Assembly (NCBI GenBank): GCA_026770705.1
Contig: JANJGN010000012.1
Coordinates: 69,998,001-70,062,000 of the forward strand
From: Isurus oxyrinchus
Lineage: Eukaryota
Direction of reading: 5' to 3'
Length of the DNA stretch: 64,000 nt
Shown here: in pieces, positions 52,401 through 58,400 of the stretch
Numbering within the stretch: position 1 is the first letter of the stretch
How the letters are laid out: the number at the start of each line of letters is the position of its first letter
Program-made: the position numbers

Positions 52401-55400
52401 TTGCCTTGAAAGTTCTTGCCTCGACTATAATTCCCAGGTTGGGTATGAATAAGATATTTCTAAGAATGACCGTGTTTCTTATGTTCCGAAACTCGAAAAC
52501 TCTGCCTTTGGTGAGTCATTTGGGCACCACTGAAGTGTTCTAAACAAATCATGGCTTCATGGTCTCCAGTGAAAGGTATCTTCAGTGCAGATACTGAGAA
52601 ACAAAAGCAGAAAATGCTGGAAACACACTGCAGGCCAGAGTAAAGGTTAATGTGCTTAGCTGTTCTCTGACTTGTCGAGTGCTCCCTGTATATTCTGTAT
52701 TTGTTTCTCATTTGACTTCTAATCAAATAATTCCACCCATAATGGTATTGATGGTTTATCGCAATTCACCTTCCATTTTCTTGGAGATTCTTCAGGGTTT
52801 TGTCCTCTCTCCCGCTTTAGTTTTCCTTTTTAACTTTCATTACACATCACCTCCTATACAGTGGCTGAGCTTTTATATCTCATTCTCCTCCATATCCATC
52901 AATGGAGCAATGGAAATCTTGTTTCAATTCTTCAGTTTCTTCGTGCCTGTCCTGTCCCATCCATAGTTACTATCTTTTACCTTTAATAGCTCCACCAGCA
53001 TTCATTCACCACTCGATAATCTTGGCTTCATTATTTCTTTTCATCAAATAATGGGAAGCAGATCGTGCAGTAAACTTTGAGGCAAATTACAGAAAGATGC
53101 AAGAACTAGAGCAGTGATAATGGAGGACTTCAACTATCCTAATATTAACTGGGACAGTAATGGGGCAAGGTGGGAGGAAGCGAGAAGAGAAGAATTCCTG
53201 AAAAGTACTTTAGGGAAGGAAATCTGCCGTCCTTACCTTGTCTGGCCTACATGTGACTCCAGGTCCACAGCAATATGGTTGGCTCTTAATTGCCCTCTGA
53301 GATGGCCTAGCAAGCCTCTCAATTGTATCAAACTGCTACAAAGTCTAACAGGAATGAAACCACAGGGACTACCCGGCATTGAACCAGGCACGGAAATGAC
53401 AAGGCACAGTCTGCCCTGTCGACCCTGCAAATTCCTTTTTACTAACACCTGGAGGCTATTGCCAAAATTGGGAGAGTTGTTACATAGACTAGTCAAGCAA
53501 TAGCTTGGCATAGTCTTAGCCACCGAATCATACATTACAGACAATGTCACAGGCACCACTATCACCATCCCTGGGCATGTCCTGTGCCACCAGTAGGACA
53601 GACCGAGCAAAGGTGGTGACACAATGGTATACAATCAGGAGGGAGTTGTCCTGGAAATCCTCAACATTGACTCTAGACCCCATGAAGTCTCCAGGCATCA
53701 GGCCAAACATGGGCAAGGAAACCTCCTTCTGATTACCACGTATCATCCCCCCTCAGTTGCTCTTCTATGTTGAACACCACTTGGAGGAAGCATTGAGGGG
53801 AGCAAGGGAGCAGAATATACTCTGAGTAGGGGAGTTCAATGTCCATCACCAAAGGTGGCTTGGTAGCGCCACTACTCACTGAGCTGGCCAAGTCCTTAAG
53901 GAGATAACTGCTAGACTGGGTCTGCTGCAGGTGGTGAGGGAACCAAGAAGAGGGAAAAAAATACTTCGCCTTGGCCTTACCAATCTATCTGTTGTAGGTG
54001 TACTTGTCCATGACAGAATTGGCAGGAGTGACCACTGCACAGTCACTATGGAGATAAAATCCTGCCTTCACATTGAGCATAACCTCCTTTGTGCCACTGT
54101 GCTAAACAGGGTATATTTTGAACAGATCTAGCAGCTCAAAACTGGGCATCTATGAGGCGCTGTGGGCCATCAGCTGCTCAAAACTGGGCATCTAGGAGAC
54201 TCTGTGGGCCATCAGCAGCAGCAGAATTGTACTCAAACACAATCTGTAACCTCATGACCCGGCATATCCCTCACTCTACCATAACCACCAAACTAGGGGA
54301 TCAACCCTGGTTCAGTGAAGAATGCAGGAGGGCATGCCAGGAGCAGCACCAGTGTCATGAAGCTATTAATGTATATAATATTTTGGAAAATATTTTTCTT
54401 TTAAAATAGAGTTTTGGTCTGCAGGTTTGTCTTACTTGGGTTAAAGCCAGCTAGTCTGAGAGCTTTGATATGTACTGGTTTTGATATGTAAAGGAGATAG
54501 CATGCATTTGCATTTTTTGAATAGAGCATTCAAGAAGTGGGGTGAAAACTTGACACCTTTCTCACAGCTACCAAGCAATATGTTTATATTACTAATAAAA
54601 TTGGTACAATGAATGGGGTTTCATTGTTAAAAGGTAAAGTTCAAAGAGGCTGGTGATACAATGAGAATTTTAATCAGGTGTGCAGGCAGAGGAAATGTAA
54701 GATCAAAAGGCAGCTACAAACCTCCAACTGGCTCCACAGTGAAAGGAACTTCATTTTGAATTTGTAAGGGGGAAATGCTTTGCCTGGTGTCTGGTTAAGT
54801 CTATGGGTTGCTGTTGCCTTAATAGTTTGGGAATTTGTTAAAAGTTATGATAGTAGTGATTTGTAACCATGTGTATTATTTTAACCTGTGTAAATTAATA
54901 AAATGTTTCAATTAGTTAATGTAAAACCTCAAGAACTATTGGTCTGATTCCTGAGTTTAGAGTCGCATCTCAAACATAACACAAAATTATTGGTTATGAC
55001 AGTTGTTTAAAGTCTCCCTCTGAGATTTTTAAATAACTCCACTTTACCAGCTGCATCATCATAACAACCAGGCATACCTAAAAATAAGGTGTCAACCTGG
55101 TGAAGTGACAACACAGGACTACTTGTATGCCAAACAGCATAAGCGAGTGATAAACAGAACTAAGCAATTTCACAACCAATGGATCAGATCTAAACTCTGC
55201 GGTCCTGCCACATCCAGTCATGAATGGTGGTGGACAATTAAATAATTAACAGGAGGGGGACACTCCACAAATATTCCTATCCTCAATGATGGGGGAGTCC
55301 AGCATATCAATGCAAAAAACAAGACTGAAGCATTTGCAGCCATCTTCAGCAGAGCTGCTGGGTGGATGATCCATCTCAGTCTCCTACTGATGTCCCCAAC

Positions 55401-58400
55401 ATCACAGATGTCATTCTTCAGCCACTTCGATTCACTCCATGTGATGTCAAGAAGCGGTTGAAGGGATTGGATAGGCTATGTGTCCTGACAATGCTCTAAT
55501 AATGGTACTGAAGACTTACATATGAACAAATGAACGTATGAACCAGGAGCTGGAGTAGGCCACTCAGCCCTTCAAGCCTGTTCCGCCACTCAATACGATC
55601 ATGGCTGAACTGATTCTAACCTCCCACCTACTCCTGATAACCTTTCACCCCCTTGTTAATCAGGAATCTATCTAGCTCAGCCTTAAAAATATTCAAAGAC
55701 CCTGCTTCCACTACCTTTTGTGGAAGAGAGTTCCAAAGAATCACAACCCTATGAGAGAAAAAAAATCTCTTTATATCTATCTTAAATGAGCAACCCCTAT
55801 GTTTTAAACCGTGACCCCTAGTTCTAGGTTCTCCCACAAGAGGAAACACCTTCTCTGCATCCACTCTGTCAAGACCCAGCAGGAGCTTAAAGGTTTTGAT
55901 CAAGTCACCGCTTACCCTTCTAAACTTCAGTGGATACAACTCTAACCTGTCCAGCCTTTCCTCGTAACACAACCCCCCCATTCCTGCTATTAGCTGAGGA
56001 AACCTTCTCTGAACTGCTTCTAATGCATTTACATCTTTCCTTAAATAAGGAGACTGTACACTGTACTCCAGTGCCCTGTACAACTGAAGCATTACCTCCC
56101 TACTCTTACATTCAATTCCCTTGACAATAAATGATAACATTCTATTTGCTTTCCTAATTACCTGCTGTACTTTCAGACTAGCCTTTTGTGATTCATGCAC
56201 TAGGACACCCAGATCCCTCTGAGTCTCAGAGCTCTGTAACTTTTTACCATTTAGATAATAAACTTTTTTTATTCTTTCTGCCAAAATGGATAATTTCACA
56301 TTTGTCCACATTATACTCCATTTGCCAGATTTTTGCCCACTCACTTAACTTACCTATGTCACCCTGTAGCCTCCTTATGTCCTCTTCATAACTTATTTGC
56401 CTACCTATATTTGTGTCATCAGCAAATTGAGCAACCATACTATCTGTCCAATAATTTAAGTCATTTATATAAATTGTAAATGTTGTGGCCCCAGCACTGA
56501 TCCCTGTGGCACATCACACGTCACATTCTGCCAACCAGAAAATTATTTGCTTTTTCTTTAAATTTGATACTATCTTTAACTTTTTTAGTTAACCACAGAT
56601 GGTGGGGCTTGTGCTCCAGAACTAGCCATGCCCCTAGCCAAGCTGTTCCAGTACAGCTACGACACTGACATCTACTTGGCAATGTAGAAAACTGTCCTGG
56701 TATGTCCTGTCCACAAAAAATGGTACAAACCCAATCCAGCCAATTACTGCCCTATGAGTCTACTCTCGATCATCAGCAAAGTCATGGAGGGTGTTGTTGA
56801 CAGTGCTATCAAGCAGCACTTAATCAGCAATAAACTGCTCACTGGCACTTACTTTGGGTTCCACCAGGGTCACTCAGTGCCTGACCTCATTACAGCCTTG
56901 GTTCAACCGTGGACAAAAGAACTGAACTCAAGGTGAGGTAGAAGTAACTACCCTTGGCATCAGCATTTGACTGAATTTGGCATCAGGAAGCCCGTGCAAA
57001 ACTGGAGTCAATGGGAATCAGAGTGGAATCTCTCCACTGGTTGGAGTCATGCCTAGCACAAAGGAAGATGGTTGTAGTTGTTGGAGGTCAGTCATCTTTG
57101 TCCCAGGACATCACAGCAGGAGCTCCTCAGGGTAGTGTCCTCGGCCCAACCATCTTCAGCTGCTTCATCAATGACTTTCCCACCATTATGAGGTCAGAAG
57201 TGGGGATGTTCACTGATGATTGCACAATTTAATCACCACTCCCTAAATACTGAAGTAGTCAGTGTCCATATGCAGCAAGACCTGGACAAGTGGCAAGTAA
57301 AATTCGCACTACACAAGTGCCAGGCAATGATTATCTCCAACAAGAGAGGATCTAAGCATAGCCCCTTAACATTCAATGGTATTACCATCACTGAATCCCC
57401 CACCATCAACATCCTGGGGGTTACCAATGACCAAAAACTGAACTGCACCAGCCACATAAATACAGTGGCTAACAAGAGCAGGTCAGAGGCTGGGAATTTG
57501 CACAGGGTAACTCACCTCCTGACTCCCCAAAGCCTGTCCACATCTTCAAGGCAGAGGTCAAGAGTGTGATAGGTTGCCCTCCACTTTGCCTGGATGAGTG
57601 CAGCTCCAACCACGCTCAAGAAGCCCAACACCATCCAGGATAAAGCAGCCCACTTGTTTCGCACCCTATCCACAAACATTGATTTCGTCCACCACCGACG
57701 CACAGTAGCAGCAGTGTGTACCATATGCACTGCAGGAACTCACCAAGCCTCCTTAGACAGCATCTTCCAAACCCATGACCCCTACCACCTAGAAGGACAA
57801 GGACAGCAGATACATGAGAACACCACCACCTGGAAGTTCCCCTCAAAGTCACTCACTATCCTGATTTGGAAATATATCACCGTTCCTTCACTGTCGCTGG
57901 GTCAAAATCCTGGAACTCACTCCCTAACAGCACTATTGGTGTACCTACACCACATGGACAGCAGCGGTTCAAGAAGGCAGCTCACCATCACCTTCTCAAG
58001 GGCAATTACGGATGGGCAATAAATGCTGGGCCAGCCAGAGATGCCCACATCCCGTAAATGACTTCTTAAAAAATGAACTTCCTAATTCAAAGTGTTTTCC
58101 ATCTAATGAGGAAGGGAGCAGAGCTCTGGGAAATGGAATGGGACAAATGGAGCATGTTTCAGTAGGAGAATGTTTGGGAAAGAATGATCTTATCATCAGG
58201 TTCAGAATAGTCAAGGAAAAGGACTCAGGCCAAGCAAGTGTCAAATAATTAACTGGAGGAGGGCGAACTTCAGTGTGTTGTAAATGGTGAAGTGGGCTGG
58301 AGTTAGAGATTAGCAGATAAACAGTAAATGAGCATTGGGACGGCTTCAAAAGGAAGATAGTTTGGCTGCAGATTAGACAAATTAGGTAACTTTTTGGAAT

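What the first reader, a model, noticed from the sequence alone, without database searches (positions are those of the whole stretch)
53207..58062. LINE-A sense strand is almost devoid of TTTT (Pol III terminator) runs
Seen by eye: no TTTT on the sense strand in 56608-58060 (~1450 nt), 55067-55517 (~450 nt) or the copy at 3790-4625 (~830 nt). The two runs in 53207-54352 (at ~53436 and ~54116) are absent from the homologous positions of the 26560-29778 copy, and one looks like TTTCG>TTTTG CpG decay. AAAA runs are common on the same strand, and neighbouring classical CR1 copies do contain sense-strand TTTT. Established: vertebrate Pol III terminates at runs of four or more T. Inference: selection for Pol III read-through of a 3-kb coding RNA, which is independent support for the tRNA-headed LINE model.
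Basis: partly seen in the sequence, partly recalled or inferred. Interest (0 to 1): 0.7.

Follow-up and report, generated by a model that had tools for sequence, protein, structure and literature searches.

The report
T-poor shark LINE, polymerase unproven
A 3-kb jumping gene in this cartilaginous-fish-like window does have almost no runs of four T on its coding strand, but its base and codon make-up mostly explain that, and a real extra avoidance of T-rich patches does not show which RNA polymerase transcribes it.

Summary
The counts are right. Five LINE-A copies carry 7 sense-strand T4+ runs in 10,283 nt (0.68/kb). The window's other LINE family carries 31 in 5,980 nt (5.18/kb). An in-script consensus (3,104 nt) has 0-1.

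T4+ alone is not below chance once composition is kept. Dinucleotide shuffles expect 1.6-2.0 (P 0.18-0.40). Codon-order and synonymous shuffles expect 1.8-2.3 (P 0.10-0.32).

A broader signal is real but moderate. T is anti-clustered at synonymous sites:
- T|T codon junctions: 10-12 observed against 27-30 expected.
- No TTN codon follows an NNT codon.
- Canonical plus non-canonical Pol III terminator motifs: 1-2 against 6-11 expected (P 0.001-0.02).

A-rich mirror motifs and the other LINE family show nothing of the kind. The depletion is graded, not a T4 threshold.

The tRNA-like head on copy B is the head and linker of a partner SINE present twice in the window. Head plus LINE went in as one unit with a target-site duplication.

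Selection against U-rich tracts is supported. Pol III as its cause is not shown.

The parts
53207..54352 (+). LINE-A copy A, part 1: 5'UTR and endonuclease region. Carries its only two sense T4+ runs (53436-53440, 54116-54119).
   Evidence: Self-BLAST, tblastn to APE+RT proteins, T-run list. Flanked by a diverged target-site duplication, read: 53192-53206 and 58075-58093.
54353..55066 (.). Foreign AT-rich insertion that interrupts copy A.
   Evidence: No match to copies B or C. Holds 10 + strand T4+ runs.
55067..55517 (+). LINE-A copy A, part 2. No T4+.
55518..56607 (-).
   Evidence: Pfam RVT_1. tblastn to P0158, residues 641-955, 50% identity.
56608..58074 (+). LINE-A copy A, part 3: RT, C-terminal region and 3' tail with a short A-rich end. 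No T4+.
   Evidence: Pfam RVT_1 at 56975-57229.
26551..29496 (-). LINE-A copy B, uninterrupted body. Three sense T4+ (29245-29242, 28938-28935, 27563-27559), each absent from copies A and C.
   Evidence: Pfam RVT_1 at 27358-27633.
29497..29790 (-). Head and linker joined to copy B. A-box-like 29769-29782 and B-box-like 29695-29705. An 86-bp foreign piece at 29522-29607. Three sense T4+ runs.
   Evidence: Motif scans. Alignment to two SINE copies. No tRNA call from ARAGORN or Rfam. T4+ list.
43836..45590 (-). LINE-A copy C, 3' part (RT to tail).
46677..47680 (-). LINE-A copy C, 5' part. It is 5'-truncated about 330 nt into the unit. Carries ATTTTG at 47041-47038, shared with copy A.
3798..4629 (+). 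LINE-A copy D, 3' fragment. No T4+.
61861..62498 (-). LINE-A copy E, 3' fragment. No T4+.
15612..15935 (+). Partner SINE copy: head, linker, a body that matches the start of the LINE-A 5'UTR, then the LINE-A tail.
   Evidence: nhmmer and blastn hits of the A and B 5'UTRs at 15792-15886. Sequence. Alignment A1.
4890..5135 (-). Second partner SINE copy: head, linker and tail, without the 5'UTR-like body.
   Evidence: Weak head match at 5040-5114. Sequence. Alignment.
25425..26549 (-). 3' half of the second-family LINE into which the copy B unit inserted.
   Evidence: tblastn to P0158, residues 572-957. The reading frame resumes right after the LINE-A tail.
29799..30466 (-). 5' half of the same host LINE. 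It ends 3 residues before the downstream half resumes.
   Evidence: tblastn to P0158, residues 341-568. Short direct repeat AACTTG / AACTTTG at both junctions.

Best explanation
LINE-A is an ordinary-looking non-LTR retrotransposon. It has one ORF of about 900 codons with endonuclease and reverse transcriptase, is about 3.1 kb long, and shares a tail with a partner SINE. Its sense strand is C-rich and T-poor.

The near-absence of T4+ follows mainly from that composition and a general preference for C-ending codons, which leave only about two runs expected per element. On top of this there is a real, moderate, strand-specific avoidance of clustered T at synonymous sites.

I read that avoidance as selection on the transcript or non-template strand against U-rich tracts in a long intronless RNA. 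The most likely setting is ordinary Pol II expression, through elongation, premature 3'-end formation or U-tract-binding factors. This step is inferred, not shown.

The tRNA-like head on copy B is the head and linker of the partner SINE. The SINE also carries the first ~130 nt of the LINE-A 5'UTR and its tail. Head plus LINE was inserted as one unit, most simply by a reverse-transcriptase template switch between LINE and SINE RNAs within their shared 5'UTR segment.
For: Composition: consensus T is 20-21% and TT observed/expected in the copies is 0.82, against T 25.9% and TT 1.20 in the other LINE family.

T4+ is explained by dinucleotide or codon make-up. Third codon positions are C 32-33% and T 22-23%.

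Extra avoidance in the consensus ORF:
- T runs of 3 or more: 5 against 12.0-13.7 expected (P <= 0.004).
- T|T codon junctions: 12 against 30.4 (majority consensus) and 10 against 27.0 (CpG-corrected), P 5e-5 and 7e-5. The other LINE family shows 118 against 98.4.
- 0 of 29 (majority consensus; 0 of 28 CpG-corrected) TTN codons follow an NNT codon.
- Terminator-type motifs: 1-2 against 6.1-10.9.
- A-mirror motifs are at 1.0 of expectation, and the other family at 1.05.

The depletion is graded: windows of 5 with 3 T are at 0.73-0.75.

SINE link: two SINE copies share B's head and linker, and one shares the 5'UTR start and the tail.

Single insertion: P0158 residues 504-568 and 572-637 flank the 3.24-kb unit, with a 6-7 bp direct repeat.

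Sense-oriented SINE/LINE chimeras with target-site duplications, formed by template switch or RNA ligation, are described for Alu/L1 (PMC13174262, passages). Head addition by template switch is Kojima's model (PMC5786205, Discussion).
Against: No call identifies a Pol II promoter, a cap or a transcript.

Polypyrimidine tracts of 8 or more are not depleted (7 against 6.6-6.9). Tests of poly(A) signals and AU-rich motifs had no power, with expectations near or below 1. So no specific Pol II-linked cause is supported.

The motif classes that stop Pol III are the most depleted ones. The only LINE-A copy in the window that reaches the 5' end carries the head (1 of 1). That would be unlikely if headed copies were rare accidents.

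The consensus rests on 3 copies over most of the ORF and 2 copies in the first 327 columns. With ties forced to T, the P values weaken to 0.02-0.065.

The T>=3 and T|T tests were chosen after the T4+ test came out null.
Confidence: 0.55

Rival explanations
1. The active LINE-A master carries the tRNA-derived head and is transcribed by Pol III from internal A and B boxes. T4+ runs and weaker interrupted-T terminators are purged from the 3.2-kb unit so that Pol III reaches the tail. The partner SINE is an internal-deletion derivative of this headed LINE.
For: The consensus has 0-1 T4+ and 2-3 terminator-type motifs in 3,104 nt. These motifs are 4- to 8-fold below codon-preserving shuffles, while A mirrors and the other LINE family are not depleted. 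TTC:TTT is 17:3. Head plus LINE was inserted as one unit bounded by a target-site duplication and starts at the first base of the tRNA-like head. A-box-like and B-box-like motifs lie in the right order on the right strand. One deletion would turn a headed LINE into the SINE seen at 15612-15935. B's T4 at 29674-29671 is TTTG in both SINE copies, so it is derived.
Against: T4+ itself is not below dinucleotide or codon shuffles. The depletion is graded and includes classes that Orioli et al. found inactive: isolated T3 at 0.5-0.7 and 3-of-5 windows at 0.73 (PMC3141230 passages). Only one headed copy is available. It now holds 6 sense T4+ runs and gives no tRNA hit in ARAGORN or Rfam. Pol III transcripts lack a cap and a LINE must be translated; that is established knowledge recalled here, not tested. 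Kojima states that SINEs cannot encode a protein. Copies A and C lack the head.
Confidence: 0.2
2. Nothing is selected. The low T-run count is chance plus family-specific composition. The apparent anti-clustering is an artefact of a three-copy consensus, CpG decay and post hoc choice of statistics.
For: The pre-specified T4+ test is null. CpG decay inflates NNT|G junctions (84-91 against about 57 expected), which inflates the expected T|T. Stratifying for this and forcing ties to T weakens the P values to 0.02-0.065. Several statistics were tried.
Against: T|T depletion stays about two-fold after stratifying on the next base. It is seen in each decayed copy separately (observed/expected 0.36, 0.64 and 0.66). 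It is absent for A and for the other LINE family analysed the same way. The count of 0 of 29 TTN codons after NNT does not depend on tie-breaking.
Confidence: 0.2

Closest known systems
L2-type LINE with its tRNA-headed partner SINE in cartilaginous fishes (SacSINE1 / L2-2_CM; Luchetti et al. 2017, PMC5499810, passages seen)
   Same: A tRNA-like head, a body and a 3' tail shared with a LINE. Present in sharks, skate and chimaera according to the paper. In the window two SINE copies share the LINE-A tail.
   Different: I could not test identity to SacSINE1, to the Deu domain or to L2-2_CM, because no repeat library was on hand. The link is recalled. The passages I read do not mention that a LINE 5'UTR supplies the SINE body, nor a headed full-length LINE.
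SINEs built from the 5' and 3' parts of a LINE plus a small-RNA head (Bov-tA, WALLSI and others; Kojima 2018, PMC5786205, abstract and Discussion read)
   Same: The SINE at 15612-15935 has a head, then the start of the LINE-A 5'UTR, then the LINE-A tail. This is the architecture Kojima describes.
   Different: Kojima found such 5' contributions only from the RTE and Vingi clades. LINE-A is neither by its protein matches, though its clade was not formally assigned. Here a copy with the head on the full-length LINE also exists.
Chimeric LINE insertions with small RNAs or SINEs at the 5' end (U6/L1, Alu/L1; PMC13174262, passages seen)
   Same: A sense-oriented small-RNA or SINE part lies 5' of the LINE, and one target-site duplication bounds the pair. 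Copy B fits this.
   Different: In those chimeras the added RNA is complete and joined end to end. In copy B the SINE part lacks its own tail and runs on into the LINE through a segment both share. That points to a homologous switch or common descent.
Pol III type 2 units and their terminators (Orioli et al. 2011, PMC3141230, abstract and passages seen)
   Same: A-box-like and B-box-like motifs sit at the 5' end. T4+ and interrupted-T motifs are scarce downstream.
   Different: Known units are a few hundred bases long and non-coding. This one would be 3.2 kb and coding. No transcript evidence exists here, and the head fails tRNA models.

Membership tests
Non-LTR retrotransposon (LINE) with APE and RT | Reverse transcriptase domain | tested here: met
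   Pfam RVT_1 in copies A, B and C. Close relatives P0004-P0007 at 71-77% identity.
Non-LTR retrotransposon (LINE) with APE and RT | N-terminal apurinic-type endonuclease | tested here: inconclusive
   tblastn of full-length APE+RT proteins hits the 5' thirds of A, B and C at query residues ~68-265. No Pfam hit reached 0.01 on the decayed ORF pieces of LINE-A itself.
Non-LTR retrotransposon (LINE) with APE and RT | Variable 5' truncation, common 3' end, target-site duplications | tested here: met
   Five copies and three tail-only fragments share the 3' end, while the 5' ends differ. Duplications flank A and B.
L2 clade / partner of SacSINE1 (tRNA-Deu-L2) | Phylogenetic placement of the RT; match to the L2-2_CM tail and to the Deu domain | not testable with these tools
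The assignment is recalled only.
SINE made of head + LINE 5' part + LINE tail | Small-RNA-type head with A and B boxes | tested here: inconclusive
   B-box-like and A-box-like motifs are present in B's head, and the B-box region is conserved in both SINE copies. No tRNA model hit.
SINE made of head + LINE 5' part + LINE tail | Body homologous to the LINE 5' region and tail homologous to the LINE 3' end | tested here: met
   The 15612-15935 copy matches the A and B 5'UTRs (E 3e-5 to 0.018) and aligns through to the tail.
Pol III-transcribed unit | No T4+ between promoter and 3' end | tested here: inconclusive
   Consensus has 0-1, or 5 with ties forced to T. The extant headed copy B has 6. The count is not below codon or dinucleotide shuffles.
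Pol III-transcribed unit | Pol III occupancy or 5'-triphosphate transcripts | not testable with these tools
   No expression or ChIP data were available.
SINE/LINE chimeric insertion by template switch | One unit bounded by a single target-site duplication, SINE part sense-oriented at the 5' end | tested here: met
   The host LINE frame is interrupted by exactly one 3.24-kb block. A 6-7 bp repeat lies at both ends.
SINE/LINE chimeric insertion by template switch | Rare, independent events rather than a propagating lineage | not testable with these tools
   This needs a genome-wide census of LINE-A 5' ends. The window holds only one informative copy.

The most novel reading that the evidence does not exclude
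An autonomous, protein-coding LINE of cartilaginous fishes is headed by a tRNA-derived promoter and is copied by RNA polymerase III over 3.2 kb. Its coding strand has been purged of canonical and weak T-rich terminators. Its partner SINE is its internal-deletion product, so the conserved SINE body would be the LINE's own 5'UTR.
Probability: 0.15. Interest if true: 0.9.

Novelty: new variant of a known kind. Interest (0 to 1): 0.5.

Why it matters
LINEs are taken to be Pol II elements and SINEs Pol III elements. A coding LINE driven by a SINE-type head would blur that divide and offer a one-step origin for a SINE family.

Even without that, two results are useful. First, a clear, strand-specific avoidance of U-rich patches at synonymous sites separates one LINE family from another in the same genome. 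Second, in-window evidence shows that a SINE body derives from the 5'UTR of a LINE outside the two clades (RTE, Vingi) where Kojima 2018 found this.

Both can be tested at once on a whole genome assembly.

Tried and rejected
- ARAGORN and Rfam found no tRNA in the window or in the head. This covers the gathering thresholds and an E <= 10 scan of 29450-29900. Folding the head gave z = 0.59.
- The search for homologous proteins gave only three short LINE-A relatives. The representative search gave fragments at 58-85% identity and full-length proteins only at about 35-46%. Reading frames therefore came from the copies' own consensus.
- A scan of genome contigs with P0004 found no relative.
- A literal search of the literature for a 20-nt 5'UTR string found 0 papers.
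- Searches for a tRNA-headed or Pol III-driven autonomous LINE (listings only) showed no such paper.
- Tests for avoidance of poly(A) signals, AU-rich motifs and splice-like motifs had no power. Pyrimidine tracts were not depleted.
- I considered the 86-bp piece in B's linker as a sign of template jumping at insertion and rejected it. The linker continues collinearly on both sides of it.
- The closed collections (metagenome contigs, viral contigs) and paper supplements were not consulted. No eukaryotic genome DNA or repeat library was available, so no second-species replicate of the T statistics could be made.
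Full report
**What is there**

The window has no N and looks like cartilaginous-fish DNA. The second LINE family's closest named proteins come from a bamboo shark and a manta ray. I did not take it for human.

- A (+): 53207-54352, 55067-55517 and 56608-58074, split by two foreign insertions.
- B (-): 26551-29496, uninterrupted.
- C (-): 43836-45590 and 46677-47680.
- D (+): 3798-4629.
- E (-): 61861-62498.

There are also three tail-only fragments of about 110-170 nt at 7800-7970, 9278-9448 and 10029-10136. 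Pairwise identity among the copies is 80-85%. Pfam finds RVT_1 in A, B and C. tblastn with full-length endonuclease-plus-RT proteins covers the rest of the ORF.

**The observation**

Over all copies the sense strand holds these T4+ runs:

| Copy | T4+ runs | Length (nt) |
|---|---|---|
| A | 2 | 3,070 |
| B | 3 | 2,956 |
| C | 2 | 2,765 |
| D | 0 | 846 |
| E | 0 | 646 |
| Total | 7 | 10,283 |

Six of the seven runs are private to one copy. The seventh is ATTTTG in A and C against ATTTCA in B, the pattern expected from a CpG ancestor.

A4+ runs number 47 on the same strands. It has 31 T4+ in 5,980 nt of sense strand, 7.6 times the LINE-A density. The binomial P is 2e-8, with the caveat that the copies share ancestry.

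**Is the T4+ count more than composition?**

I built a majority consensus inside a script (3,104 nt, never printed) and a CpG-adjusted version. They hold 1 and 0 T4+ runs, at 20-21% T.

| Null | Expected T4+ | P (observed or fewer) |
|---|---|---|
| Mononucleotide shuffle | 3.7-4.4 | 0.024-0.064 |
| Dinucleotide-preserving shuffle | 1.6-2.0 | 0.18-0.40 |
| Codon-order permutation (ORF) | 2.0-2.3 | 0.10-0.31 |
| Synonymous shuffle (ORF) | 1.8-2.2 | 0.13-0.32 |
| Uniform codon usage | 4.5-5.0 | 0.005-0.019 |

In the single copies, dinucleotide shuffles expect 2.9-3.6 against 2-3 observed. The T4+ paucity is therefore real but is carried by low T, low TT (observed/expected 0.82 against 1.20 in the other family) and C-ending codons. 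An element of this size cannot reach significance on T4+ alone.

That is more skewed than other NNC:NNT pairs (269:204, Fisher p 0.018).

**A broader signal**

Orioli et al. 2011 (PMC3141230, abstract and passages) report four things:
- T4 and T5 terminate efficiently.
- The interrupted motifs T3VT2, T2VT3, T3VT, TVT3 and T2VT2 are weak terminators.
- T2GT2 is an exception among these and, like isolated T3, is almost inactive.
- Isolated T3 is almost inactive.

A Pol III read-through model therefore predicts that these interrupted motifs are scarce too. They are.
- In the ORF consensus, TTTT, TTTVT, TVTTT and TTVTT together occur 1-2 times. Codon permutation expects 9.2-10.9 and synonymous shuffles expect 7.7-9.3 (P 0.001-0.006).
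- The whole 3,104-nt consensus holds 2-3 such motifs.
- The A-mirror set is at expectation (41-42 against 40-50).

The source of the signal is codon context.
- T|T across codon junctions is 12 against 30.4 expected, or 10 against 27.0 in the CpG-adjusted version (P 5e-5 and 7e-5). Only C|G is more depleted. The other LINE family shows 118 against 98.4.
- None of the 28-29 TTN codons follows a T-ending codon.
- T runs of three or more number 5 against 12.0-13.7 expected (P <= 0.004).

CpG decay inflates NNT|G junctions and so inflates the null. I therefore repeated the synonymous shuffle within strata of amino acid and whether the next base is G.
- The terminator set is then 1-2 against 6.1-7.2 (P 0.023).
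- Runs of three or more are 5 against 10.3-10.7 (P 0.005-0.013).
- A motifs are at 1.0.
- The other family, treated the same way, is at 1.0-1.15.
- The decayed copies taken one by one also show depletion. For the terminator set, observed/expected is 0.65, 0.41 and 0.71.

With every tie column forced to T, a deliberately adverse consensus, P rises to 0.02-0.065.

Caveats:
- Over most of the ORF the consensus rests on three copies, and on two in the first 327 columns.
- The coding path still holds 3-9 stops and one imposed frameshift.
- The run >=3 and junction tests were chosen after the T4+ test came out null.

**What the signal does not show**

The depletion is graded rather than stepped at four T.
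- Five-base windows with three T are at 0.67-0.75 of expectation (P <= 0.001).
- Windows with four or more T are at 0.09-0.34.
- Isolated T3 is at 0.5-0.7, which is not significant.

Part of the three-T deficit is the shadow of the missing four-T motifs. Even so, the pattern fits any pressure against U-rich tracts.

I looked for a specific Pol II-linked cause and found none. Pyrimidine tracts of eight or more are not depleted (7 against 6.6-6.9). Tests of poly(A) signals and AU-rich motifs have no power. Two AATAAA motifs lie in the last 60 nt of the consensus, and the copies end in short A runs. Pol III SINEs with the same tail would share that feature.

**The head**

Upstream of copy B lie an A-box-like motif (29769-29782) and a B-box-like motif (29695-29705), in the right order on the sense strand. 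ARAGORN and Rfam report no tRNA even at E <= 10.

The window holds two copies of a SINE with the same head and linker.
- The copy at 15612-15935 continues into about 130 nt that match the start of the LINE-A 5'UTR and then jumps to the LINE-A tail.
- The copy at 4890-5135 has head, linker and tail only.

LINE-A and this SINE are therefore partners. The SINE body derives from, or is shared with, the LINE 5'UTR. Kojima 2018 (PMC5786205, abstract and Discussion) documented this architecture only for the RTE and Vingi clades.

From memory, this looks like the shark tRNA-Deu-L2 SINE (SacSINE1), whose LINE partner is L2-type according to Luchetti et al. 2017 (PMC5499810, passages). I could not test that.

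Head plus LINE-A in copy B is a single insertion. The host LINE's reading frame stops at 29799 (P0158 residue 568) and resumes at 26549 (residue 572). A 6-7 bp direct repeat lies at both junctions.

Copy A starts at the beginning of the 5'UTR segment shared with the SINE and has its own target-site duplication of about 15 bp. Copy C is truncated about 330 nt further in. So one of one copies that reach the 5' end carries the head.

Copy B today has three T4+ in its head and linker. One lies in an 86-bp later insertion. One is TTTG in both SINE copies and so is derived.

**Reading**

Most likely (0.55), LINE-A is a normal LINE whose T4+ paucity is mainly compositional. A genuine but moderate selection against U-rich patches acts on top of that. 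Copy B is then a SINE-LINE recombinant made by a template switch within the shared 5'UTR. This is the kind of event described for Alu/L1 chimeras (PMC13174262, passages) and invoked by Kojima for head addition.

It correctly predicted the scarcity of weak terminators and gives a one-deletion origin for the SINE. It lacks any direct evidence, and it must also explain how an uncapped 3-kb RNA is translated. That last point is recalled knowledge, not tested here.

A pure chance or artefact reading keeps about 0.2.

**Novelty**

In two listing-level searches and one literal sequence search I saw no paper describing a tRNA-headed or Pol III-driven autonomous LINE. I also saw none describing T-tract avoidance in a LINE.

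I file the object as a new variant of a known kind, a LINE-SINE partnership. A whole-genome census of 5' ends and a many-copy consensus would settle the question.

Noticed in passing
window 15612-15935 (+) and 4890-5135 (-): Two copies of a tRNA-headed SINE that shares head and linker with the 5' extension of LINE-A copy B. One also carries the first ~130 nt of the LINE-A 5'UTR before the shared tail. So a SINE body derives from, or is shared with, the 5'UTR of a LINE outside the RTE and Vingi clades. From memory it resembles the Deu-domain SINE of sharks; this was not tested.
   Followed up: partly
window 29522-29607 (-) and 30201-30286 (+): An 86-bp piece inside copy B's linker is an inverted duplicate (87% identity) of host-LINE sequence about 600 bp away. 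The linker continues collinearly on both sides, so it looks like a later local inverted duplication.
   Followed up: partly
window 54130-54240 (+): Copy A carries a tandem duplication of roughly 45-65 bp in its ORF that copies B and C lack.
   Followed up: no
window 9450-10030 and 10140-10260 (-): A C/T-rich satellite of short CCTCTCCACCTCT-like units. Two LINE-A tail fragments (9278-9448, 10029-10136) are embedded with similar flanks, which suggests the tail was duplicated together with the array.
   Followed up: no
window 45672-46154 (+), inside copy C: An ORF with a weak GIY-YIG match (E 2.7e-4, below the Pfam cut-off) lies in the block that splits copy C. It may be a Penelope-like element.
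   Followed up: no
window 49520-50187 (-): RT and RNase H domains of an LTR-retrotransposon type (RT_RNaseH_2 at E 1.5e-25).
   Followed up: no
window 36000-40000, ORF 37958-38314 (+): The most GC-rich stretch of the window (54-56%) holds a DDE_Tnp_4 transposase fragment (E 5.6e-21).
   Followed up: no
LINE-A copies against second-family LINE segments, whole window: The two LINE families have opposite sense-strand compositions: C 26% and T 22% in LINE-A, against C 13% and A 34% in the other family. Codon-junction dinucleotide profiles also differ.
   Followed up: partly
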